Source: Candidatus Omnitrophota bacterium
GTDB taxonomy: Bacteria; Omnitrophota; Gorgyraeia; Gygaellales; Profunditerraquicolaceae
DNA: 64,000 nt
Assembly (NCBI GenBank): GCA_016208765.1
Contig: JACQXK010000001.1
Coordinates: 128,218-192,217 of the forward strand
Direction: 5' to 3'
Shown here piece by piece: positions 21,192 to 30,165 of the stretch. Within the stretch, counting starts at the first letter, position 1, and each line of letters opens with the position of its first letter. A program made the translations under genes and the position numbers. Below the pieces are notes generated by a model. That model was not told where the DNA came from. It ran no database searches and saw nothing but the letters and a program-made list of their open reading frames with translations.

Positions 21192-23294
21192 ATGTTTGGT
21201 TTTGATTTACTGATTTTGGCTCCAATAGGTTCAATTCTTGCGCTTTCGTTTGCTTTTTACCTTGCTCTTAGTGTTTTGAAGATGGATCAGGGTACGGACC
21301 GGATGAAAGAAATCGCGCAGGCAGTGCGAATTGGCGCACAGGCATATTTAAAACGCCAGTATGTTGGGGTCGCTTTATTTTTTGTGGCAGTGTTTTGTAT
21401 TTTGATGTTCATGGCAGTGAAGAATTATTTGGTTATTTTTGTTCCTTTTGCGTTTCTTACCGGCGGGTTGTTCTCAGGGCTTTCCGGGTTTATCGGAATG
21501 AACATAGCTACTCAATCTTCAAATCGCACAGCTGCAGCAGCAATGAAAAGCCTTAATTCAGGTTTACGCGTAGCTTTTTCAAGCGGCGCAGTTATGGGGC
21601 TTACTGTGGTAGGGCTTGGTTTATTGGATTTAAGTATCTGGTATTATTTTTTAAACTGGTATTATTCCTGTCATCCGATTCCATTGGGGACAGATAAAAT
21701 AGCTGCAATTACATCCACTATGCTTTGTTTTGGTATGGGGGCCAGCTCTCAGGCATTGTTTGCCAGGGTCGGCGGAGGTATTTTTACCAAGGCTGCGGAT
21801 GTAGGCGCTGATTTGGTGGGGAAAGTTGAAGCAGGTATTCCTGAAGATGACCCGCGTAATCCTGCAGTTATCGCTGATAATGTCGGTGATAATGTCGGCG
21901 ATGTGGCTGGGATGGGCGCTGATTTGTATGAGTCTTATGTCGGTTCTATTGTGGCTACTTCTGCACTTGGTGTTGCTGCCGGATTAGGTGTTGCCGGTGT
22001 AACTGTTCCTATGGTTATGGCAGCAGTAGGCGTAGTTGCTTCAATTATCGGGACGTTCTTTGTGAAAAGCAAAGAAGACGCAAGTCAAAGTGCCTTGTTA
22101 GCTGCGCTTCGTAAAGGCGTGTTTGCCAGTTCTTTTATTGTGGCTGTGATATCTTTTTTCTTGATCAAGGCCACCTTGGGTGTTGAACATATGGGCGTTT
22201 ATTGGTCAGTGCTTACAGGCTTATTGGCCGGTGTTTTAATTGGTTTGTGCACAGAATATTATACTTCAAGCGGATTTAAGCCTACGCGCTTTATTGCGGA
22301 TCAGTCAGTTACAGGGCCTGCAACAGTAATTATCGGAGGTCTTGCTGTTGGGATGATGTCTACAGCTTTACCTGTGTTGATTGTGGGTATTGCTATTTTG
22401 GCCAGCTACTTTTTATCAGGTGGTGCAGCTAATTTTAACTCTGGCCTCTACGGTATAGCTATTTCTGCAGTAGGCATGCTTTCTACTTTGGGGATTACCT
22501 TGGCCACTGATGCTTATGGTCCGGTTGCGGATAATGCCGGCGGAAACGCAGAGATGTCGCATCTGCCTCCTGAGGTAAGAAAGAGAACCGATGCCTTGGA
22601 TTCTTTGGGAAATACCACTGCAGCAACGGGCAAGGGTTTTGCCATTGGTTCTGCTGCTTTAACTGCTTTGGCATTAATTGCTGCATTCAGGGATCAGGTG
22701 GGTTTGTATGGCAAAGAAATGGTTTTAAGCTTAATGAATCCAAATGTATTGGTAGGTTTGTTTTTTGGCGGGATGCTTCCATTTTTCTTCTGCTCTATGA
22801 CCATGCGCGCAGTAGGACGAGCTGCTGGTAAAATCGTTGTGGAAGTGCGCAGGCAATTTAAGGAAATTGCCGGCCTGATGGAAGGAAAAGCCAAGCCTGA
22901 TTATGCTCGTTGTGTTACTATTGCAACGGCTGCGGCCCAGAAAGAAATGATCATGCCTTCGCTTTTGGCAGTGGCTGCTCCGATTGTGGTTGGCCTTTTA
23001 ATTGGTGTTGAGGCAGTAGCTGGGTTATTGACTGGAGCAACTGTCTGCGGTTTTGTTTTGGCGGTAATGATGGCTAATTCCGGAGGCGCATGGGATAATG
23101 CCAAGAAATACATTGAAGAGGGGCATCATGGGGGCAAAGGTTCTTTAGCGCATAAGGCAGGAGTAGTTGGTGATACAGTAGGGGATCCTTTTAAAGATAC
23201 TTCCGGGCCTAGTTTAAATATTTTAATTAAGCTGATGTCTATGGTGTCTATTGTATTTGCTTCTTTTATTATCAGAAACACTTTTTTTAAGTAG
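21192..23294 (+). CDS. hppA: Membrane-bound proton/sodium-translocating pyrophosphatase
   Basis: 700 aa with ~16 TM segments. Diagnostic motifs [18 protein letters not shown] and [22 protein letters not shown]. Candidate TTGACA-N16-TGTTAAAGT promoter at 21114-21141. Confidence 0.95.
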
Positions 23295-23312: not shown

Positions 23313-23357
23313 GCAAGCGGGCGTTTCTAATTATAGGAAACGCCCGCTTTGTTTTTC
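23313..23357. terminator. Rho-independent terminator after hppA
   Basis: Stem GCAAGCGGGCGTTTC, loop taattatag, stem GAAACGCCCGCTT(T), followed by GTTTTT. Confidence 0.7.
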
Positions 23358-23384
23358 GGGTTTTAGTGGTATAATAAATTTGTT

Positions 23385-23987
23385 ATGGAAGATTTAGAAT
23401 TTGCCCAAAAATGCGCTAAAGGGGACAATAACTCTTGGGATGAATTCTTAAAGAAATATTCCCGCCTTATTTACAATTATATTTATCAGGTTTTAAATAA
23501 TAAAGGTTACAATTCCAACCTGTACCTGCATGATGTTTTTCAGGATTTTTTCTATTTTTTGATCAAAGATGACTACAAAAAAATCAAAAGTTTTAAGGCA
23601 AAAAACGGCTGCTCTTTGGCAAGCTGGCTAAGGCAGGTGGCGATTAATTTTACTTTAAATTATATCCGCCGCATTAAGCCGGAAGTTTCTTTGGATGAAC
23701 AGAGAGACGATGAATTAAGCTTAAAAGAGATTATAGCTGATGAAAATGCATCCAGCGATGATTATCTTGCTCAAGAGGAAAAGCTTGATGATTTAAAAGA
23801 TTGTATCCGCGCCTTAAATAACGACGAGAAGATGTTTATAGATTTGAATATTTTTCGCGGTATCCCCATGGAAAACATGAAGGATTATTTTCAAGTGGGC
23901 AGGTCAGCTTTAGATATGCGTAAATCGCGGATCATTGAAAAACTCAGGGATTGCTTTAAAAGCAAAGGTTTTATGTTAGATTTTTAG
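23385..23987 (+). CDS. ECF-family RNA polymerase sigma factor
   Basis: Sigma-70 region 2 (YSRLIYNYIYQVLNN...DVFQDFF) and region 4 HTH (FIDLNIFRGIPMENMKDYFQVGRSALDMRKSRIIEKL). Extended -10 TGGTATAAT at 23367-23375 lies only ~9 nt before the ATG, so the transcript may be leaderless or nearly so. Confidence 0.8.
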   Translation: MEDLEFAQKCAKGDNNSWDEFLKKYSRLIYNYIYQVLNNKGYNSNLYLHDVFQDFFYFLIKDDYKKIKSFKAKNGCSLASWLRQVAINFTLNYIRRIKPEVSLDEQRDDELSLKEIIADENASSDDYLAQEEKLDDLKDCIRALNNDEKMFIDLNIFRGIPMENMKDYFQVGRSALDMRKSRIIEKLRDCFKSKGFMLDF

Positions 23988-24024
23988 TTTTTATGTGTCT
24001 ATTATAGTAGGGAGGGTATAGATT

Positions 24025-24729
24025 ATGCAGGACAAAATGGATAAGCTTGTTAAGCATGTTTATAAAAAATACAAAGCTGATGTGCATGTTTATGAAAATG
24101 AGCATCCGGGAGAAGAAAGGCTGGCGTCTTTTTTGGAGGGGGGATTATCTAAGGATGAGTCTGAGCATGTTAAGGCGCATTTATTAAGCTGCAGCGATTG
24201 CATGGATAATTTTGCATCTAATTTTCCAGTTTTTCCAATTGAGAAATTAGATGTTCCGGCAGCTGGCCTTGCTGAATTAAAAGAGTTGATCTTGGCGCAG
24301 AAAAAAGTTTCTTTTCTTGAGATAGCCTTGCGGTTAAAAGAGAAAATGCTTGAGGTGATTAATACTAACGGCGATTGCTTAGTTGGGCTTGAATTGATCC
24401 CCGCTCCTGTTTTACGCAGCAGGGAAATAAAGGATTTTAAAGATGAAGTTGTTATTTTAAAGGATTTTGGTGACATAAGAGTAGAGGTAAAAGTAGAGAA
24501 TAAAGATAAAAATACGTTTAATCTTATAATTGTGGCAAAGAACAGGCAGACACAGCAGGTGCTTAAAGATTTAAGAATAACCTTAATTAAAGATGGATTA
24601 GAAATGGAGTCGTGCCTTGCAAATTCCGGCTCGGTTGTTTTTGAACATGTGGAATTGGGTGTTTATAAGGTTGAGGTTTCCAGCATTGAAGAAAGGCTCG
24701 CTTCTATTCTGCTGGATGTAAAGGCCTAA
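24025..24729 (+). CDS. Putative cytoplasmic zf-HC2 anti-sigma factor with a C-terminal domain of unknown function
   Basis: Motif HVKAHLLSCSDCMD matches the H-x3-C-x2-C anti-sigma zinc finger. No TM segment. Located immediately downstream of the ECF sigma gene. Confidence 0.6.
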   Translation: MQDKMDKLVKHVYKKYKADVHVYENEHPGEERLASFLEGGLSKDESEHVKAHLLSCSDCMDNFASNFPVFPIEKLDVPAAGLAELKELILAQKKVSFLEIALRLKEKMLEVINTNGDCLVGLELIPAPVLRSREIKDFKDEVVILKDFGDIRVEVKVENKDKNTFNLIIVAKNRQTQQVLKDLRITLIKDGLEMESCLANSGSVVFEHVELGVYKVEVSSIEERLASILLDVKA

Positions 24730-24734
24730 GCCAA

Positions 24735-26942
24735 ATGCAAAAAGAAAAAGCATTAATCCTTGAAATATTCAGGCAGGATTCCGGCCTTAAGATGGGCCTT
24801 TTTGAGGCTGATGATTTTGTTTCTACGCTTCGGCATTATGCCAATGTGCATGTTTTGTTTACTGAAATTGATAGCCTTTGTTCAGAGTTGGCCGTAGCGT
24901 TGAATAAAGTAGACAGAAACGGAAATTTGGATCCGGATGCGCTGAAGCAATTGACAAAAGTCGGAAGTTTATTATGGAGCCATTTATTTAGCCGGCAGAT
25001 AAAAGAGAAGCTGAAGAACTCAGGTATCTTTGATTTAGTTTTGTCAATTGATGAAGAGCTGGTGAATATTCCCTGGGAGCTTCTTTATGACGGGACAAAT
25101 TTCCTGTGCTTAAATTTTAATCTTGGCCGTGTGGTGCGCACTAAGTCTGAAAATTCTCCTGTGCAATACCGCAGTTTTTCCTCTGCGCCAAAGATGCTTA
25201 TTTTGGCAAATCCCACCAATGACCTAAAATCAGCTTATATTGAGGGCCTGAACATTAAGAATCAGTTTGAGCGAAAAAGAAATAATGTGCGCATTGATTT
25301 TAAATCAACTCTGATTAACAGGCTTTATGTAAAGAAGAACCTGCAGGATTATGACATTATGCATTTTGCCGGACACTGTGAATATGAGGAATCCAATCCT
25401 TCGGCAAGCGGCTGGGTGCTTTCCGACGGCAGGTTTACAGTGCAGGATATCTTGGGTATCGGGCCGGATGTGCAGCTTCCGTCATTAATATTTTCTAATG
25501 CCTGTCATTCTGCTTTCCCGGGGGCAAGCCTTCCTGAGGCTGATTATCAGAAGAAAGCATACAGTTTAGCTGCGGCGTTCTTACTCTCCGGGGTAAGGCA
25601 TTATATCGGCACGATCCGCAGGATTGAAGATACGGCAAGCCTTAGTTTTGCGCAGGAATTCTATTCTCATCTGGTTTTCGGCAAGCCCATCGGAGAGAGT
25701 CTGCGCCTGGCGCGGATTAAATTAATTAAAGACCGCGGGATCATGTCTATTCATTGGGCCAGCCACCTGCTTTATGGGAATCCGGGTTTTGTTTTTTTTA
25801 AATCTCAGGCAAAGGCCGAGCCTAAAAGGCCTAAAATAACTTTTCGTTTGCCAAAAAAGGTTATTGGCGCGGTTTCTGCCGGTTTTCTCTTAATTTTTCT
25901 GGGAGTTTTTCTGTATTTTTGGCTGCCCAGCAAAAATCCGAATAACTATTTTTTGCTTGCGCAATCAAAAAAGATGTTTTCCGTTGGTGATAATAAGGGG
26001 GTAATTGCTTTAGGTAACAAGATTACATCTAAGGATCCTGATTTTCTGGCGGCGTACCCGGTTTTAGCAGAAGCCTATCAGCGCAGCGGAGACCGTGAAA
26101 ATGCCCTGAAGTATTATTTTGAGTATGCGCGTTTTAGCGAGAAGAAAAATGATAAGCGGCATTTGGCGGCAAGTTTTACTGAAATCGGGTGGAATTATCA
26201 TTTGCAAGGGGAATATGCAAAGGCGTTTGAGTATTATGACAAGGCTATTAATTTGAGCCGGCAAAATAAAGATAAATTAAATGAGGCGCGAGCATTGCGT
26301 AAGTTAGCCGTTTGGTACATTGATAAAAAGAATGATGATAAGGCACTTGAATTACTGACGAAAAGCTCTGAGATCAACCGTTCGCGGCAGCATGCCTATG
26401 AACATAAATATAATTTGGCTTGCGATTATTTTGACATGGGGCTTGTTTTTATTAACAAGAATGATTACGAAAGCGCAAAAGAATTCTATGATAAGAGCCG
26501 CAGGTTATTTGAGAAGCTTAAGTTGAAAAACGAGCTAAACGATTATTATTTTAATTTGGGGGAGATTTATGTTGCCCAGAAACAATTTCAAAAGGCGCTG
26601 GATAGTTATATGCAAGGCCTTAAGATTGATGAAAGGCAGAATAATAAAGTTGGCCTGGCATGTGACTACAACATGATCGGAGAATTGTATGTGGAGATGG
26701 ATAATTGGAGCGAGGCTGAGAAATATTTTATGCGCTCATCAAATATGTCCAAAGAGATCAATGCACGGCCGGAACTTGCCGGAGCATATTACAACCTTGG
26801 CCTGTTGTATAAGAAAATGGGAAAGAAAAACAAGGTAAGGGAATACTGGCGCCAGGCGCAGGAAATTTATAAGGCAATTGATGAATCAATGTATCAGGAA
26901 ATTAAGAAAGAACTTCTGGCGTTAAACAATCCGGTTTATTAG
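24735..26942 (+). CDS. CHAT (caspase-like protease) domain - single TM - TPR repeat protein
   Basis: CHAT catalytic dyad context IMHFAGHCEY and IFSNACHSA in the N-terminal ~360 aa. A TM helix VIGAVSAGFLLIFLGVFLYFWL follows a KRPKITFRLPKK patch, so the CHAT domain is predicted cytoplasmic. The C-terminal ~330 aa are TPR-like repeats (AEAYQRSGD..., AKAFEYYDKAINL..., ELAGAYYNLGLLYKKMGK...). Confidence 0.8.
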   Translation: MQKEKALILEIFRQDSGLKMGLFEADDFVSTLRHYANVHVLFTEIDSLCSELAVALNKVDRNGNLDPDALKQLTKVGSLLWSHLFSRQIKEKLKNSGIFDLVLSIDEELVNIPWELLYDGTNFLCLNFNLGRVVRTKSENSPVQYRSFSSAPKMLILANPTNDLKSAYIEGLNIKNQFERKRNNVRIDFKSTLINRLYVKKNLQDYDIMHFAGHCEYEESNPSASGWVLSDGRFTVQDILGIGPDVQLPSLIFSNACHSAFPGASLPEADYQKKAYSLAAAFLLSGVRHYIGTIRRIEDTASLSFAQEFYSHLVFGKPIGESLRLARIKLIKDRGIMSIHWASHLLYGNPGFVFFKSQAKAEPKRPKITFRLPKKVIGAVSAGFLLIFLGVFLYFWLPSKNPNNYFLLAQSKKMFSVGDNKGVIALGNKITSKDPDFLAAYPVLAEAYQRSGDRENALKYYFEYARFSEKKNDKRHLAASFTEIGWNYHLQGEYAKAFEYYDKAINLSRQNKDKLNEARALRKLAVWYIDKKNDDKALELLTKSSEINRSRQHAYEHKYNLACDYFDMGLVFINKNDYESAKEFYDKSRRLFEKLKLKNELNDYYFNLGEIYVAQKQFQKALDSYMQGLKIDERQNNKVGLACDYNMIGELYVEMDNWSEAEKYFMRSSNMSKEINARPELAGAYYNLGLLYKKMGKKNKVREYWRQAQEIYKAIDESMYQEIKKELLALNNPVY

Positions 26943-26959
26943 CGATAGAAATAAGGATT

Positions 26960-27104
26960 CTGTCCTGTCTTGTTCTCGCAGCACCGTTTGCCCCGCCCCA
27001 GCGTGGCGGGGCTGCACTCGGGCGAAAACTCTTGCTCTTCCCCGACTTTTAGTCGGGGAAGAGCAAGAGTTTTCTAACGTGCTGCTCGAATCAAGACAGG
27101 ACAG
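26960..27104. repeat. 145-nt nested inverted-repeat element (long outer stem enclosing two GC-rich hairpins, the second terminator-like)
   Basis: Outer arms ctgtcctgtcttgttctcgcagcac (26960-26984) and gtgctgctcgaatcaagacaggacag (27079-27104). Inner hairpin 1 ccccgcc/ggcgggg at 26992-27011. Inner hairpin 2 is an 18-bp perfect stem ctcttgctcttccccgac/gtcggggaagagcaagag at 27029-27069 followed by TTTTCT. Confidence 0.6.
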
Positions 27105-27227
27105 TTGTTCTTATATGCCGTCTTTCTTAGTTGCGTTAGTTTAATTGCTGAGTCATTCTGAACGAGCACGGCGAGTGAAGGATCTGTGTTTGACAAAACA
27201 AACAGGAAAACTTCACGGAAAATAAAT

Positions 27228-27256
27228 TTGACAGATTCAATATCGGGTAGTATGAT
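27228..27256 (+). promoter_or_regulatory. Sigma70-type promoter for the PKD lipoprotein gene
   Basis: TTGACA (27228-27233), 17-nt spacer, TATGAT (27251-27256). The GTG start at 27293 is preceded by an AAAGGAG RBS. Confidence 0.5.
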
Positions 27257-27292: not shown

Positions 27293-28546
27293 GTGAAAAG
27301 ATTTGCAGCGATATTATTAGCAGTATTAACTTTATCCGGGTGCGCCACTTACAGGTTTCAAACAGGCCAGCCTCCTTATAATAAAGGTTATGTGGTTGAA
27401 AGAAGCGGCCAGCCTATTGTAGATTATACAGTAGGAAAAAACAACACTGTGCCTTCGGACCTGAAGCTTGCAGTTGAGCGTTTCTATCGTCGTAGAGATA
27501 CTGTTGAGGCTTATTATAAAAAGATGGGTGAGATGGAGGGTAGGTTTAAAGAAGTTTTCTTAAATCCTCCTATTGCCATCGTGCAATTTATCGGAGGATT
27601 CTTCCACCTGCCTTATCTTTATTATTCTAATTATAAATATGAGCATGATCCTAAATACCGCAAAGAAGTTGATAAGGAACAAAATGAACGTCTTGCTGCT
27701 GAACTGGCGCGCAAAAAAGCCGTGCGAGATGAACTCAATGCTTACATAGAGAAGGATTTGGCAAAGGAACCGGTTTTAGCTAAAGAGCCTGAAGTTGTGG
27801 AGACCAAAGTTGAAGAAGTAAAGGTTGCATTAGCCGAAGGAGAAAAAACAACTGTTGTTAAAGAGGAGATAGAAGAACCAAAGGCAAGCACAGAGGCAAA
27901 CCTTGATGTAAATGCTTCAGTGGTAACTGAAGCAAAACCTGCTGAAGTTGAAAAATCTGTAGTTGAGCCTGTTGTTGAAGAAAAAGTTACAGCAGTGCCT
28001 GTTGTCCAGGCAGAGAAAATTGTAACAGAGCCTGCTAAAGAGCCTGTTGCAGGGCCTGCGCAGGAAGAAATAATTGTAACAGAATCTACTCCGGCAGAAA
28101 AGATTACAACAGAACCTGCTTTGACAGAGAAGGCTACAGCAGAGCCAGCTATGGTAGAAAAGGTAGAAACATCTCCTCAGGTTGTTGAGAAACCAGAGCC
28201 TGTTCTTGAAGTTACAGTAAGAAAAGTTGAAGCGCCGAAGATAACCAAAGAAAAAGTAAAACCGCAGGCACAGCCTCCGGTAGCCATAATCATTGCTAAG
28301 CCTGCAAAAGGTTATTCTCCTTTGAGAGTTAAATTTTATGGGCATAAATCCCATTCCCGCGGTTCAAGAATAATCGCCTATCAGTGGGATTTTGGCGACG
28401 GCACCACCTCTAATAAAAAAGACTTCGTTAATACCTACTGGAGCGTTAGCTATGGCTCCAGAAATTTCCCCGTTACACTTACCGTTACTGATAACCGCGG
28501 CAATACCGCCACCGCAACTACGGTTATTGAAGTAAAAAGCAAATAA
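27293..28546 (+). CDS. Lipoprotein with a long E/P/V/K-rich low-complexity linker and a C-terminal PKD domain
   Basis: Lipobox LTLSGC. ~180-aa repetitive acidic/proline region (EPVVEEKV, EPAKEPV, EKPEPVLE ...). PKD signature in the C-terminal ~100 aa (LRVKFYGHKS...WDFGDGTTS...VTLTVTDNRGNTATA). Confidence 0.8.
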   Translation: MKRFAAILLAVLTLSGCATYRFQTGQPPYNKGYVVERSGQPIVDYTVGKNNTVPSDLKLAVERFYRRRDTVEAYYKKMGEMEGRFKEVFLNPPIAIVQFIGGFFHLPYLYYSNYKYEHDPKYRKEVDKEQNERLAAELARKKAVRDELNAYIEKDLAKEPVLAKEPEVVETKVEEVKVALAEGEKTTVVKEEIEEPKASTEANLDVNASVVTEAKPAEVEKSVVEPVVEEKVTAVPVVQAEKIVTEPAKEPVAGPAQEEIIVTESTPAEKITTEPALTEKATAEPAMVEKVETSPQVVEKPEPVLEVTVRKVEAPKITKEKVKPQAQPPVAIIIAKPAKGYSPLRVKFYGHKSHSRGSRIIAYQWDFGDGTTSNKKDFVNTYWSVSYGSRNFPVTLTVTDNRGNTATATTVIEVKSK

Positions 28547-28572: not shown

Positions 28573-30165
28573 TTGCTACTTCCTGTGTCTATTAGTATAG
28601 GAGGTGGCAAAATGAAGAAGAAGGTTTTGTTTTTTGGCGCAGTTTTCTTAGGGGTTTTTCTGCATGTCTTGGGCCAGGGTTTGGAGTGGGAAGATATTAG
28701 CGGAGGGAATCTGAATTTTAGGTCAGTCTTAGTTGATGATGCCAATCCGCAGTTGATTTATTCAGGAACTAACCGTGAAGTGCTAAAAACTGAAGATGGT
28801 GGAAAGATCTGGCGTAGTATTTTAAGGGTCAAGGGGCAGGATACAAATGTAAATTTTATTTCTTTTGACAACTCAAACAAAAATATTCTTTATGCTGCCA
28901 CCGGCAATGGTTTGTATGTAAGCAATAATCAAGGCAGGCGCTGGGAAAGAATTTTTAAAGGAAAAAGCTCGGCAGAGGCAGAATGTACAGCAGTGGTTGC
29001 TACCGGCATAAATATTTTCTTAGGCACAAAAGCAGGTTTATTTTACAGCCAGGATAAAGGGCGCACCTGGCATAAAGAAATTGGTAAAATCGGGACAAAC
29101 CGTATTTTAACAATTGCGCAAAGCTTTCGTGATGAAAAGAATATCTATGTTGCCGGTGTTGACGGTGTGTTCAGGACTAAAAATAACGGCAATGATTGGG
29201 AGAGAGTTTTTGTTGCGCACCCCGTAGAAAATGGCAATGAAGACGATAATCCAGAGGATGATCATGATGAAGAAAAGCGTTATTCAGGAGTGCGCTATAT
29301 TTGCCTTGATCCTAATAATCATGCTTACCTATATTTATCTTCTGATAAAGGGGTGTATAAAAGCAGCGATCAGGGGAATACCTGGTATTTGTTGTCGGAT
29401 TACGGTTTAATAAATAAGGAAGTCAGTTTTATTTTCATGGACGAAAATTCTAATCTTTATGCAGCAGCAAGATCAGGTATTTTTGAATATAAGAATGAGC
29501 GTTGGAAAGAGTTGTCTTTTGGCTTGTCTGCAGGAGAAGTGAGATTTCTGGCGCATGATAATAAACGTAACTTATACGCTGCTTGCGAAAAAGGGTTGTT
29601 TAAGGCCGGCCTTGATAATTTTGTTAATTATAAACCGGGGAATCCTTTGGTTTTTTATAGCGAGGGAGAGCCAAGGATTGGAGATGTGCAAAAGGCAGCG
29701 ATAAAATATGCAGAGGTAGAGCCAAATAAAATAATAAAATGGAGAAAGCAGGCGGCAAAGAAGGCGATTATGCCGCAGGTAAGCGCAGGAGTTGGCCGTA
29801 ATGTAACCGATCTTTGGCATTGGGAGGGAGGGTCTACTACCAAGCCTGAAGATGATATCTTAAGGCGCGGTAACGATGCCATAGAATGGGATGTTACTTT
29901 AAGCTGGGATCTAAGCGAGCTAATCTGGAATAATGATCAGACTTCAATTGATACAAGGTCGCGTTTGATGGTGCAATTGCGGGATGATATTTTAGATGAG
30001 GTAACTAAAACTTATTTTGAGCGCATGCGCGTAAAGATTGAATTGAATAATCTGGCTATTGAAGATAAAAAGCGCAGGATTGAAAAAGAGCTCAGGCTTC
30101 AGGAATTGACTGCTTCGTTAGACGCTCTAACCGGAGGTTATTTTACACAAAATATCAAAGGTTAA
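28573..30165 (+). CDS. Exported BNR/Asp-box repeat beta-propeller protein (Ycf48/sortilin-like) with a C-terminal helical region
   Basis: Signal peptide. At least five Asp-box-like repeats (TEDGGKIWRS, SNNQGRRWER, SQDKGRTWHK, TKNNGNDWER, SSDQGNTWYL). C-terminal region is coiled-coil-like. Confidence 0.7.
   Translation: MLLPVSISIGGGKMKKKVLFFGAVFLGVFLHVLGQGLEWEDISGGNLNFRSVLVDDANPQLIYSGTNREVLKTEDGGKIWRSILRVKGQDTNVNFISFDNSNKNILYAATGNGLYVSNNQGRRWERIFKGKSSAEAECTAVVATGINIFLGTKAGLFYSQDKGRTWHKEIGKIGTNRILTIAQSFRDEKNIYVAGVDGVFRTKNNGNDWERVFVAHPVENGNEDDNPEDDHDEEKRYSGVRYICLDPNNHAYLYLSSDKGVYKSSDQGNTWYLLSDYGLINKEVSFIFMDENSNLYAAARSGIFEYKNERWKELSFGLSAGEVRFLAHDNKRNLYAACEKGLFKAGLDNFVNYKPGNPLVFYSEGEPRIGDVQKAAIKYAEVEPNKIIKWRKQAAKKAIMPQVSAGVGRNVTDLWHWEGGSTTKPEDDILRRGNDAIEWDVTLSWDLSELIWNNDQTSIDTRSRLMVQLRDDILDEVTKTYFERMRVKIELNNLAIEDKKRRIEKELRLQELTASLDALTGGYFTQNIKG

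What the first reader, a model, noticed from the sequence alone, without database searches (positions are those of the whole stretch)
23385..26942. Three-gene ECF sigma / cytoplasmic anti-sigma / CHAT-TM-TPR module: a caspase-like protease may control the sigma factor
The sequence shows an ECF sigma gene, then a TM-less zf-HC2 anti-sigma, then a 735-aa protein with a cytoplasmically oriented CHAT domain (His in HFAGH, Cys in NACHS), one TM helix and an extracytoplasmic TPR array. All three are co-directional with 5-40 nt spacers. They sit behind a single promoter and are closed by a terminator-like hairpin. The inference is that the TPR region senses an envelope cue and the cytoplasmic CHAT protease cleaves the soluble anti-sigma, which would be a route to ECF activation different from the classical site-1/site-2 RIP cascade. 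TPR-CHAT proteases (HetF, Csx29/Craspase) are known from other contexts. I cannot verify whether an ECF group with this conserved partner has been described.
Basis: partly seen in the sequence, partly recalled or inferred. Interest (0 to 1): 0.75.

Follow-up and report, generated by a model that had tools for sequence, protein, structure and literature searches.

The report
Membrane caspase-like protease paired with anti-sigma
A three-gene unit conserved across the uncultured phylum Omnitrophota pairs a stress-type sigma factor and its soluble inhibitor with a membrane-spanning caspase-like protease, which probably frees the sigma factor by cutting the inhibitor at one invariant arginine.

Summary
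Window 23385-26942 encodes an ECF sigma factor (200 aa), a TM-less zf-HC2 anti-sigma (234 aa) and a 735-aa CHAT-TM-TPR protein.

The triad is obligate. Sigma, anti-sigma and CHAT occur in the same order in 77 of 77 testable Omnitrophota species loci. Starting from the anti-sigma, the CHAT gene follows in 69 of 71 metagenome loci. The anti-sigma to CHAT gap has a median of 5 nt.

The positive-inside rule places the CHAT domain in the cytoplasm in 78 of 78 orthologs. The catalytic His and Cys are invariant (111 of 111).

The anti-sigma's most conserved part is not its sigma-binding domain. It is a predicted-disordered linker holding an Arg that is invariant in 146 of 146 orthologs and in 123 of 123 distant cluster representatives. 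HetF, which has the same CHAT-TM-TPR layout, cleaves its cytoplasmic substrate after Arg.

Distant relatives, including Nitrospinota, keep sigma, anti-sigma and CHAT but swap the outer domain: TPR, discoidin, CsgG-like, trypsin-like, or none.

Best reading (confidence 0.58): a receptor-type CHAT protease cleaves a soluble anti-sigma, bypassing regulated intramembrane proteolysis. Cleavage itself is inferred, not shown.

Precedents exist (Craspase Csx29/Csx30, DdvA, HetF/PatU3, ECF54), so this is a new variant of a known kind.

The parts
23315..23349 (+). Intrinsic terminator of the upstream H+-pyrophosphatase gene. It marks the 5' boundary of the module.
   Evidence: Stem of 14 bp (8 GC pairs) followed by a T-run. 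The H_PPase gene is at 21192-23294.
23367..23375 (+). Extended -10 promoter element TGGTATAAT, 9 nt upstream of the sigma start codon. This implies a housekeeping-type promoter and a leaderless or near-leaderless mRNA.
   Evidence: Sequence read. A TATAAT-like hexamer lies within 20 nt of the sigma start in 75 of 75 orthologous loci, and 60 of 75 have the TG extension. An SD-like motif is present in only 1 of 75.
23385..23987 (+). ECF (group IV) sigma factor, 200 aa.
   Evidence: TIGR02937 scores 69.9 bits against a cutoff of 42.9, and Sigma70_r2 scores 25.7 against 24. Orthologs lie directly upstream of the anti-sigma in 77 of 77 loci. Sigma genes in distant triads are homologous to it (E 1e-21 to 1e-53).
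24025..24729 (+). Soluble zf-HC2 (ZAS-type) anti-sigma factor, 234 aa. It comprises an N-terminal helical anti-sigma domain, a helical linker, a conserved disordered motif and a C-terminal beta-sandwich.
   Evidence: zf-HC2 scores 26.6 bits against 22.2 and is detected in 38 of 40 members. No TM segment. AF2 model. SD-like motif upstream in 72 of 77 loci.
24178..24201 (+). H52-x3-C56-x2-C59 zinc-binding motif of the anti-sigma domain.
   Evidence: H27, H52, C56 and C59 are invariant in 146 of 146 orthologs. HxxxCxxC is present in 122 of 123 distant representatives.
24361..24444 (+). Conserved but predicted-disordered linker motif (residues 113-140, ...GDxLVGxELxPAPVLRSRxIKDFKD). The candidate protease recognition and cleavage site is R131|S132 (R131 = nt 24415-24417).
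   Evidence: Mean pairwise identity is 0.72, against 0.45 for the anti-sigma domain. pLDDT is below 50 over residues 106-138. R131 is present in 146 of 146 orthologs and 123 of 123 representatives. The next residue is S, G, A or T in all 146 orthologs.
24445..24726 (+). C-terminal 8-strand beta-sandwich of the anti-sigma (transthyretin/CarboxypepD_reg-like). It is the presumed docking or regulatory domain.
   Evidence: pLDDT 83-89. EMC7_beta-sandw hits in 19 of 40 members, with weaker SpaA and CarboxypepD_reg hits. No significant PDB match.
24735..26942 (+). CHAT-TM-TPR protein, 735 aa, interpreted as a receptor-type caspase-like protease.
   Evidence: Identical (100%) to an NCBI protein from a Candidatus Omnitrophica MAG. 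Relatives occur in 327 GTDB species-representative genomes.
24957..25781 (+). Cytoplasmic CHAT (clan CD cysteine protease) domain, residues 75-349. H210/H214 are at nt 25362-25376 and C257 at nt 25503-25505.
   Evidence: PF12770 scores 110.8 bits. H210, H214, N255 and C257 are invariant in 111 of 111 orthologs.
25860..25928 (+). Single transmembrane helix (residues ~376-398), oriented N-in/C-out.
   Evidence: KD19 2.39. K+R flank counts are 5.9 (N side) and 1.5 (C side), with N greater than C in 78 of 78 orthologs. AF2 helix at 374-396.
25941..26927 (+). Extracytoplasmic TPR array (17 modelled helices, residues 403-731), the presumed sensor domain.
   Evidence: Multiple TPR Pfam families. AF2 pLDDT about 90. 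Mean pairwise identity 0.58.
26951..27113 (+). Nested 160-nt hairpin structure after the CHAT stop codon. It probably terminates transcription here but is not a conserved part of the module.
   Evidence: MFE -109.7 kcal/mol, z -12.7. Arms mapped. No Rfam family. Absent from L001.

Best explanation
The three genes form one signalling module.

The operon is transcribed from a housekeeping-type extended -10 promoter. The sigma gene is translated from a leaderless or near-leaderless mRNA, the anti-sigma from its own Shine-Dalgarno site, and the CHAT gene by coupling to the anti-sigma (5-nt gap).

The soluble ZAS anti-sigma holds the ECF sigma factor through its N-terminal zinc-binding helical domain.

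The third protein is a single-pass receptor protease. Its TPR array faces the periplasm and its CHAT domain faces the cytoplasm. When the outer domain detects its cue, the CHAT domain becomes active. The cue is unknown but is probably an envelope protein, and activation may work by induced dimerisation as in initiator caspases.

The active CHAT domain then cuts the anti-sigma in its exposed conserved linker, most likely after the invariant Arg131 (LR|S). This separates the sigma-binding half from the beta-sandwich half. The sigma-binding fragment is then lost, probably through general proteases, and the sigma factor is released.

Shown here: gene content, topology signal, obligate co-occurrence, invariance of the catalytic and candidate-site residues, and modular swapping of the sensor domain.

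Inferred: sigma binding, the cleavage itself, the cleavage site, the nature of the signal, and the fate of the fragments.
For: 1. Domains are confirmed.

2. Linkage is obligate. There are 77 of 77 triads in GTDB Omnitrophota species loci. Reciprocally, 69 of 71 anti-sigma loci are followed by CHAT and 69 of 70 are preceded by sigma. The three exceptions have only 250-412 nt of flank.

3. Coupling is tight. The median anti-sigma to CHAT gap is 5 nt over 73 species, and -20 to +18 nt in distant variants.

4. The CHAT domain is cytoplasmic in 78 of 78 orthologs by the positive-inside rule. It is therefore in the same compartment as a TM-less anti-sigma.

5. The protease appears catalytically competent. 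H210, H214, N255 and C257 are present in 111 of 111 orthologs, and the H[FY][AS]GH motif is kept in all ten sequenced distant CHAT partners.

6. The best-conserved stretch in the anti-sigma is a predicted-disordered linker (identity 0.72 against 0.45 for the sigma-binding domain; pLDDT below 50).

7. Within that linker, R131 is invariant in 146 of 146 orthologs and in 123 of 123 cluster representatives, even where the flanks have diverged. The pattern is hydrophobic-R-small.

8. HetF has the same CHAT-TM-periplasmic-TPR layout. Its CHAT domain cleaves the cytoplasmic regulator PatU3 between R117 and S118, and the Cys mutant is inactive (PMC8406250, PMC9457339).

9. The TPR-CHAT protease Csx29 cleaves Csx30, an inhibitor of an ECF-like sigma factor (PMC10028731).

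10. In distant relatives the sigma, anti-sigma and CHAT core persists while the C-terminal domain changes: TPR, two F5/8-type-C domains, CsgG-like, trypsin-like, or none. These include Nitrospinota. This is the pattern expected for a sensor module bolted onto a fixed transmitter-substrate pair.

11. No ECF-type autoregulatory promoter is conserved upstream. Only a sigma-70-type -10 element is. That fits constitutive expression with post-translational control.
Against: - There is no direct evidence of cleavage or of physical contact between the CHAT domain and the anti-sigma.
- The CHAT core was modelled poorly (pLDDT below 50 for residues 138-374). Active-site geometry and any docking surface could not be examined.
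- A soluble HxxxCxxC anti-sigma could in principle be inactivated by thiol oxidation alone, as in RsrA.
- Conserved operon partners of ECF sigma factors can be regulon outputs rather than regulators, a caveat stated in PMC7826278.
- How a single TM helix would transmit a periplasmic signal to the CHAT domain is unknown.
- In one variant (L164) the CHAT protein has no TM helix, so membrane signalling is not universal in the family.
- The taxonomy of most distant variants is unknown.
Confidence: 0.58

Rival explanations
1. Securin-like arrangement. The anti-sigma's conserved linker and beta-sandwich bind the CHAT active site as a pseudosubstrate, inhibitor or adaptor. The anti-sigma then keeps the protease off, or targets it, and the real proteolytic substrate is something else, such as the sigma factor itself, an envelope-biogenesis protein or the CHAT protein. 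Sigma release would follow from competition or partner switching rather than from cleavage of the anti-sigma.
For: The data that support a direct contact between the CHAT domain and the anti-sigma are equally compatible with inhibition. Separase, a CHAT-fold relative, is held inactive by securin bound at its active site (summarised in PMC11506125).
Against: An invariant Arg followed by a small residue is what a true P1-P1' site looks like for HetF (R|S). Pseudosubstrates usually lack a cleavable P1 residue. No alternative conserved substrate gene travels with the module across the variants.
Confidence: 0.15
2. The anti-sigma is an RsrA-like redox-sensing ZAS protein that releases sigma when its zinc-thiolate site is oxidised. 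The CHAT-TM-TPR protein is a co-transcribed output or an unrelated HetF-like envelope or division protease, and does not regulate sigma.
For: H27, H52, C56 and C59 are invariant. The anti-sigma is soluble, like RsrA and ChrR, although the NCBIfam hits to those families are weak. Operon partners can be targets rather than regulators (PMC7826278).
Against: This does not explain why the most conserved anti-sigma segment is a disordered linker with an invariant Arg, plus an extra beta-sandwich. It does not explain why CHAT genes with unrelated C-terminal domains always abut this anti-sigma type, including a permuted gene order. The operon is driven by a housekeeping-type promoter, so the CHAT gene is not visibly sigma-dependent.
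Confidence: 0.12
3. Non-proteolytic tether. The CHAT domain acts only as a membrane scaffold that docks the anti-sigma/sigma complex. A periplasmic signal changes its conformation and releases the complex without peptide-bond cleavage.
For: DdvA's CHAT domain was seen in a resting state, and its dyad mutants showed no phenotype under the conditions tested (PMC11506125). This shows that CHAT domains in sigma pathways need not be constitutively active.
Against: Absolute conservation of His, Asn and Cys in 111 of 111 orthologs, and of the catalytic motifs in 31-44% identical variants, argues for retained catalysis. So does the invariant Arg in the partner.
Confidence: 0.08

Closest known systems
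HetF / PatU3 of Anabaena sp. PCC 7120 (PMC8406250, PMC9457339)
   Same: The domain order is identical: N-terminal CHAT, one TM helix, periplasmic TPR. The CHAT domain cleaves a soluble cytoplasmic negative regulator after an Arg (R117|S118), and the catalytic Cys is required. The anti-sigma here carries an invariant R131-S132 in an exposed linker.
   Different: The window protein is not a HetF ortholog (NF045509 scores 22.5 bits against a cutoff of 1200). HetF's substrate PatU3 is not an anti-sigma and no sigma factor is involved. HetF acts in cell division and heterocyst development. HetF and PatU3 are not described as an operon pair.
Type III-E CRISPR Craspase: Csx29 (TPR-CHAT), Csx30 and CASP-sigma (PMC10028731)
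   Same: A CHAT protease cleaves a soluble protein that binds and inhibits an ECF-like sigma factor. Cleavage separates the sigma-binding N-terminal part from a C-terminal domain.
   Different: Csx29 is cytoplasmic and is activated by target RNA through Cas7-11. It has TPR-then-CHAT order and no TM helix. No cas genes occur near the module and PADLOC gives no defence hit. The window sigma scores 22.6 bits against the III-E sigma model, whose cutoff is 100. Known Csx30 sites follow Leu or Met, not Arg.
DdvA / DdvS of Myxococcus xanthus (PMC11506125)
   Same: An ECF sigma factor is controlled by a ZAS-type anti-sigma domain associated with TPR and CHAT modules and one TM helix. CHAT-mediated proteolysis is proposed as the trigger.
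   Different: DdvA is one polypeptide with the ZAS domain inside and TPR-CHAT in the periplasm, and the proposed follow-up is RseP-dependent RIP. Here the ZAS anti-sigma is a separate soluble protein, the CHAT domain is cytoplasmic, only the TPR array is outside, and no RIP step is needed. DdvA controls a defence island. This module sits among housekeeping genes.
CalpL / CalpT / CalpS (type III CRISPR SAVED-Lon protease, anti-sigma, ECF-like sigma; bioRxiv 10.1101/2024.05.08.593097)
   Same: A tripartite protease, soluble anti-sigma and ECF-like sigma system in which a dedicated protease cleaves the anti-sigma.
   Different: The protease is Lon-type and is activated by cyclic oligoadenylate. 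It is cytoplasmic and CRISPR-linked.
ECF54 (Actinobacteria), as summarised in PMC8999054 citing Huang 2015 and Casas-Pastor 2021
   Same: This is an ECF group whose conserved gene neighbourhood includes CHAT-domain and 'carboxypeptidase'-domain proteins, and proteolytic control has been proposed. The anti-sigma's beta-sandwich here is CarboxypepD_reg/EMC7-like.
   Different: ECF54 is described as lacking any anti-sigma factor and is actinobacterial.
Classical RIP cascades (RseA/DegS/RseP, RsiW)
   Same: The sigma factor is released by regulated proteolysis of its anti-sigma in response to an extracytoplasmic cue.
   Different: In those systems the anti-sigma is membrane-spanning and is cut first outside the membrane and then within it by two proteases. 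Here the anti-sigma has no TM segment, and the protease itself carries the signal across the membrane.

Membership tests
ECF (group IV) sigma-70 family | [quoted passage not shown] | tested here: met
   TIGR02937 scores 69.9 bits against a cutoff of 42.9 over residues 18-190. Sigma70_r2 scores 25.7 against 24. No equivalog or subfamily model reaches its cutoff.
ECF (group IV) sigma-70 family | Assignment to a defined ECF Hub group. | not testable with these tools
   ECF Hub HMMs are not available here. The main text of the reclassification paper mentions neither CHAT nor Omnitrophica, and its supplements are not held.
ZAS / class I anti-sigma domain (zf-HC2) | HxxxCxxC zinc motif within an N-terminal helical bundle, encoded next to an ECF sigma gene. 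| tested here: met
   zf-HC2 scores 26.6 bits against 22.2 and is detected in 38 of 40 members. H52, C56 and C59 are invariant in 146 of 146 orthologs. Four N-terminal helices are modelled. The gene is adjacent to sigma in 77 of 77 loci.
ZAS / class I anti-sigma domain (zf-HC2) | Physical binding and inhibition of the cognate sigma factor. | not testable with these tools
   This needs a pull-down, two-hybrid or transcription assay, or a multimer structure prediction.
CHAT domain, clan CD cysteine protease | Match to PF12770 with a conserved His-Cys catalytic dyad. | tested here: met
   PF12770 scores 110.8 bits. H210, H214 and C257 are invariant in 111 of 111 orthologs. Which of the two His residues is catalytic was not resolved.
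CHAT domain, clan CD cysteine protease | Demonstrated peptidase activity. | not testable with these tools
   This is biochemical. The AF2 model of the core was too poor (pLDDT below 50) even for a geometry check.
HetF (NCBIfam NF045509 equivalog) | Full-length match above the curated cutoff. | tested here: not met
   22.5 bits against a cutoff of 1200, with only residues 252-355 aligned.
HetF (NCBIfam NF045509 equivalog) | CHAT-TM-TPR domain order with a cytoplasmic CHAT domain. | tested here: met
   compared with the HetF organisation in PMC8406250 and PMC9457339.
DdvA-like TPR-CHAT anti-sigma | ZAS domain, TM helix and periplasmic TPR-CHAT in one polypeptide. | tested here: not met
   The ZAS domain and the CHAT domain are on separate proteins, and the CHAT domain is N-terminal and cytoplasmic.
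Type III-E CRISPR Craspase module | Association with Cas7-11, Csx30 and Csx31, and a III-E type sigma factor. | tested here: not met
   The neighbours are housekeeping genes. PADLOC gives no defence hit. NF041236 scores 22.6 bits against a cutoff of 100.
RIP-regulated anti-sigma (RseA/RsiW type) | Single-pass transmembrane anti-sigma with an extracytoplasmic domain. | tested here: not met
   No hydrophobic segment is present. The maximum KD19 has a median of 1.03 across 77 orthologs, and the top 150 representatives are uniformly ~230 aa or fragments.
ECF54-type CHAT-associated ECF | Sigma sequence in the ECF54 clade, with no anti-sigma and with CHAT, subtilase and carboxypeptidase neighbours. 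| not testable with these tools
   Only a review summary was available. An anti-sigma is clearly present here, which differs from the published description.

The most novel reading that the evidence does not exclude
This is the founding example of an unrecognised and widespread class of 'receptor caspases'. These are single-pass membrane proteases with a cytoplasmic CHAT domain. On an extracytoplasmic cue, the CHAT domain directly cleaves a dedicated soluble ZAS anti-sigma at one invariant Arg. That gives a one-protease transmembrane route to ECF sigma activation with no intramembrane proteolysis. The class would be core to Omnitrophota, present in Nitrospinota and other lineages, and able to exchange sensor domains (TPR, discoidin, CsgG-like, trypsin-like). 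The actinobacterial ECF54 group may be a diverged member.
Probability: 0.5. Interest if true: 0.8.

Novelty: new variant of a known kind. Interest (0 to 1): 0.72.

Why it matters
ECF sigma factors are among the most abundant bacterial signalling systems. Only a handful of activation mechanisms are established: regulated intramembrane proteolysis, redox sensing, partner switching, phosphorylation and C-terminal extensions.

This module would add a distinct mechanism, in which the protease itself is the transmembrane receptor and the anti-sigma is a soluble substrate. It would also connect three separately studied uses of CHAT proteases (HetF in development, Craspase in CRISPR immunity, DdvA in defence regulation) to an ordinary housekeeping signalling role.

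It gives a defined and testable prediction: cleavage at LR|S, abolished by R131A or C257A. It also provides a natural set of swappable sensor domains that could be useful for engineering orthogonal sigma switches.

Finally, it is one of the few conserved regulatory circuits identifiable in Omnitrophota, a phylum with almost no experimental biology.

Tried and rejected
- **Fold comparison of the CHAT domain.** The AF2 model built from the 24-sequence alignment had pLDDT below 50 across residues 138-374. No fold search was run on it because the matches would be meaningless.
- **Profile search of the CHAT protein against PDB sequences.** Only TPR proteins were returned. No Csx29, separase or DdvA hit appeared.
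- **Foldseek of the anti-sigma model against PDB.** Only generic Ig-like beta-sandwiches were returned, all with E above 1e-3. No specific homolog was found for the C-terminal domain.
- **Third homolog search, using a profile of distant anti-sigmas.** It gave only 6 hits because of the word-index limit, so the phyletic range stays poorly defined.
- **Organism labels.** They could be recovered for only two divergent clusters, one Nitrospinota and one Omnitrophota.
- **ECF group assignment.** ECF Hub models are unavailable. The NAR 2021 supplements and the primary ECF54 paper by Huang 2015 are not held.
- **Defence-system reading.** Rejected. There is no PADLOC hit beyond generic TPR, the neighbours are housekeeping genes, and no cas genes are present.
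- **Autoregulatory ECF promoter upstream of sigma.** None is conserved. Only a sigma-70-type extended -10 element is.
- **Downstream hairpin as a known RNA.** No Rfam family reached its threshold. The structure is not repeated in the window and is not conserved in the nearest relative.
- **PKD lipoprotein gene as part of the module.** Rejected. It is present downstream in only 2 of 80 loci.

Full report
**1. What is in the window**

The window comes from a Candidatus Omnitrophota MAG. The 735-aa protein is 100% identical to an NCBI entry on a 258,789-bp contig.

At 23385-26942 there are three co-directional ORFs:
- a 200-aa ECF sigma factor (TIGR02937 69.9 bits against a cutoff of 42.9; Sigma70_r2);
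- a 234-aa protein with a zf-HC2 anti-sigma motif at residues 30-59 (26.6 bits against 22.2) and no hydrophobic segment;
- a 735-aa protein with a CHAT domain at residues 75-349 (110.8 bits), one TM helix near 376-398, and a TPR array from about 403 to 731.

The spacers are 37 and 5 nt. The upstream H+-pyrophosphatase gene ends in a strong terminator at 23315-23349, so the module starts a new transcription unit.

**2. Topology**

Across 78 orthologs, the 15 residues on the N side of the TM helix carry 5.9 K+R on average. The C side carries 1.5, and the N side is the higher in every case. There is no N-terminal signal peptide.

By the positive-inside rule, the CHAT domain is cytoplasmic and the TPR array is extracytoplasmic. 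This layout resembles receptor kinases such as PknB (my own knowledge). It is also the layout described for HetF.

**3. Conservation of the triad**

A scan of one genome per GTDB species found relatives of the CHAT protein in 327 genomes. The best 80 loci were kept. Most are labelled Omnitrophota, 13 carry a Planctomycetales or Margulisiibacteriota label, and one is simply 'bacterium'.

In all 77 loci with upstream DNA, sigma and anti-sigma genes lie directly upstream in the same order and on the same strand. The other three loci are cut at the contig end.

The reverse test started from the anti-sigma in metagenome contigs. A CHAT gene follows immediately in 69 of 71 loci, and a sigma gene precedes in 69 of 70. 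The three exceptions have only 250-412 nt of flank.

The anti-sigma to CHAT gap has a median of 5 nt over 73 species.

**4. Expression signals (new)**

All 75 loci with enough upstream sequence have a TATAAT-like hexamer within 20 nt of the sigma start codon. In most, 6-9 nt separate the hexamer from the start codon. Sixty of the 75 have the TG of an extended -10 element. Only 1 of 75 has a Shine-Dalgarno-like sequence.

In the window this element is TGGTATAAT at 23367-23375, with the ATG at 23385. The implication is a housekeeping-type promoter and a leaderless or near-leaderless sigma mRNA.

The anti-sigma has an SD-like motif in 72 of 77 loci. The CHAT gene has one in only 10 of 78, which fits translational coupling to the anti-sigma.

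No conserved ECF-type promoter is visible, so control is expected to be post-translational.

**5. The anti-sigma**

AF2 with a 40-sequence alignment gives three parts:
- four N-terminal helices (the anti-sigma domain), followed by two more helices;
- a segment at residues 106-138 with pLDDT below 50;
- a confident 8-strand beta-sandwich at 141-232 (pLDDT 83-89).

The beta-sandwich is transthyretin/CarboxypepD_reg-like by weak Pfam hits and has no significant PDB match.

The low-confidence segment is the best-conserved part of the protein. Mean pairwise identity is 0.72 for residues 113-140, against 0.45 for the sigma-binding helices. By comparison the CHAT catalytic domain scores 0.64.

Within that segment R131 is invariant in 146 of 146 orthologs. 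S132 is always S, G, A or T. R133 is present in 142 of 146.

High conservation combined with predicted disorder is typical of a linear motif that is read by a partner protein.

**6. The protease**

H210, H214, N255 and C257 are invariant in 111 of 111 distinct orthologs, so the domain is very likely an active enzyme. The CHAT core was modelled poorly and could not be compared structurally.

**7. The wider family (new)**

An exhaustive profile search with the anti-sigma found 447 clusters (50% identity level) at E ≤ 1e-10. The top 150 are all about 220-248 aa or fragments, and none is fused to a TM segment or another domain.

Among 123 full-length representatives, the flanks of the linker diverge strongly but the Arg is still invariant (123 of 123). 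It is usually preceded by L, F, M or V and followed by a small residue.

I read the genomic context for thirteen divergent members. Ten gave enough flank. Two of them, P0387 and P0373, carry the same CsgG-like architecture, so nine architectures are listed below.

| Locus | Arrangement |
|---|---|
| L163 | sigma-like, anti-sigma, CHAT-TM-two F5/8-type-C domains |
| L161, L173 | CHAT-TM-CsgG-like domain |
| L169, L170 (Nitrospinota) | sigma, anti-sigma, CHAT-TM-trypsin-like domain |
| L164, L165 | sigma, anti-sigma, soluble 421-aa CHAT |
| L171, L174 | CHAT-TM-TPR-like |
| L175 (Omnitrophota) | CHAT-TM-other domain |
| L172 | permuted order: CHAT-TPR, sigma, anti-sigma |

Every one of these has a CHAT gene beside the anti-sigma. 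In eight architectures its start abuts or overlaps the anti-sigma stop; in L172 it lies upstream, before sigma. Two further loci (L162, L167) are cut short but show a partial CHAT ORF immediately downstream of the anti-sigma.

The CHAT domains are 31-44% identical to the window's. All ten keep the H[FY][AS]GH motif and nine matched the N[AS]C pattern; L174 was not matched by my pattern. In eight of the nine TM-bearing forms K+R is higher on the N side; in L173 the two sides are equal (3 and 3).

The neighbouring sigma genes are homologous to the window's sigma (E 1e-21 to 1e-53).

So the fixed core is sigma plus a ZAS anti-sigma (with its Arg linker and beta-sandwich) plus an N-terminal CHAT domain. 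The outer domain is exchangeable. That is the signature of a sensor attached to a fixed transmitter-substrate pair.

**8. Mechanism**

The best-supported reading is that the CHAT protein is a receptor protease. A signal at the extracytoplasmic domain activates the cytoplasmic CHAT domain. The CHAT domain then cuts the soluble anti-sigma in its exposed linker, most likely after R131, and the sigma factor is freed.

The closest experimental analogue for the enzyme is HetF. It has the same CHAT-TM-periplasmic-TPR layout, and its CHAT domain cleaves the cytoplasmic regulator PatU3 between R117 and S118 in a Cys-dependent way (PMC9457339).

The closest analogue for the logic is Craspase, in which the TPR-CHAT protease Csx29 cleaves the sigma inhibitor Csx30 (PMC10028731).

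Three points are inference: activation by induced dimerisation, removal of the sigma-binding fragment by general proteases, and the nature of the cue.

Three rivals remain open:
- a securin-like inhibitory role for the anti-sigma;
- an RsrA-like redox switch, with the CHAT protein as an output;
- a non-catalytic tether.

Each explains less of the data. In particular they do not account for the invariant Arg, the invariant dyad and the sensor swapping.

**9. Comparison with the literature**

Within the searchable library, CHAT and anti-sigma appear together only in a few contexts:
- DdvA;
- type III CRISPR systems (Craspase, CalpL and SAVED-CHAT papers);
- a review sentence on ECF54, an actinobacterial group said to lack an anti-sigma but to have CHAT, subtilase and carboxypeptidase-domain neighbours.

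The main text of the ECF reclassification paper mentions neither CHAT nor Omnitrophica.

The module is not a member of the HetF equivalog, the DdvA type, the III-E system or the RIP type (see the membership tests).

It is best called a new variant of protease-controlled ECF signalling. My literature coverage is incomplete, because subscription papers and supplements are missing.

**10. Context**

The neighbours are housekeeping genes: H+-PPase, RecG, an RsmD-like methyltransferase, a CoaD-like protein, an ABC-2 transporter and a PAS-HD-GYP protein. PADLOC finds no defence proteins.

H+-PPase lies upstream in about 50 of the 80 loci. A secreted BNR/sortilin-like propeller lies downstream in about 40. 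This looks like a core chromosomal envelope-signalling unit, not a mobile or immune island.

**11. Verdict**

It is strengthened by a specific candidate cleavage site and by the discovery of a broader family with modular sensors. The cleavage step remains unproven.

- Interest: 0.72
- Novelty: new variant of a known kind

Noticed in passing
window 26951-27113 (+): A 160-nt nested three-way hairpin lies immediately after the CHAT stop codon. MFE is -109.7 kcal/mol and z is -12.7. It contains a perfect 24-bp stem (27024-27047 / 27051-27074) inside 13-bp outer arms. It matches no Rfam family, is not repeated in the window, and is absent from the closest relative L001, where a tRNA gene follows instead. 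It could be a terminator, an inserted palindromic element or an sRNA.
   Followed up: partly
window 23367-23385, and the corresponding upstream regions of L001-L080: The sigma gene appears to be leaderless in all testable species. An extended -10 element (TGnTATAAT) sits at a nearly fixed 6-9 nt from the start codon, with no Shine-Dalgarno sequence. A TATAAT-like hexamer is present in 75 of 75 loci, and an SD-like motif in 1 of 75. Whether leaderless starts are common in Omnitrophota generally was not examined.
   Followed up: partly
window 28573-30165 (+); L013, L021, L047, L066, L071 and others: A secreted BNR/Sortilin-Vps10-like beta-propeller (530 aa, with an N-terminal signal-like sequence) lies downstream of the CHAT gene in about 40 of 80 species loci. 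In some it is directly adjacent (27-150 nt). It could be a periplasmic partner of the TPR domain, or a regulon member.
   Followed up: no
window 21192-23294 (+): A membrane H+-pyrophosphatase gene lies immediately upstream of the module in about 50 of 80 species loci at 79-89% amino-acid identity. This synteny with the sigma operon is unusually stable.
   Followed up: no
L169 5741-8296 and L170 2147-4702 (Nitrospinota): This variant partner has a cytoplasmic CHAT domain, a TM helix, and an extracytoplasmic trypsin-like (Trypsin_2) domain followed by an Asp-rich repeat tail. That is two different protease domains on opposite sides of the membrane in one protein, next to the same anti-sigma type. 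An OmpA-like gene and an alpha-2-macroglobulin-like gene follow.
   Followed up: partly
L172 940-4735: The gene order is permuted (CHAT-TPR, then sigma, then anti-sigma) in one divergent member. The three genes therefore stay together even when rearranged.
   Followed up: no
L016, L036, L043, L044, L052, L056, L058, L064, L070, L074, L079 ('Planctomycetales'); L009 ('Margulisiibacteriota'): Several MAGs that carry the typical Omnitrophota-type triad and synteny are labelled Planctomycetales or Margulisiibacteriota in their records. This is probably submitter taxonomy or binning rather than true occurrence in those phyla.
   Followed up: no
window 27293-28546 (+): A 417-aa lipoprotein-like protein has a long Glu/Lys/Val/Pro-rich low-complexity middle region and a C-terminal PKD domain. 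It has its own strong sigma-70 promoter (TTGACA-17-TATGAT at 27228-27256). It sits between the module and the BNR gene here, but is found in only 2 of 80 other loci.
   Followed up: no
window 24025-24729, residue 35: The window's anti-sigma has Ser at position 35, where 126 of 146 orthologs have Cys, a likely fourth zinc ligand. Seventeen orthologs share the Ser. H27 is invariant in orthologs but is replaced by Cys in 48 of 123 distant representatives, so the zinc ligand set may vary (HHCC or CHCC).
   Followed up: no
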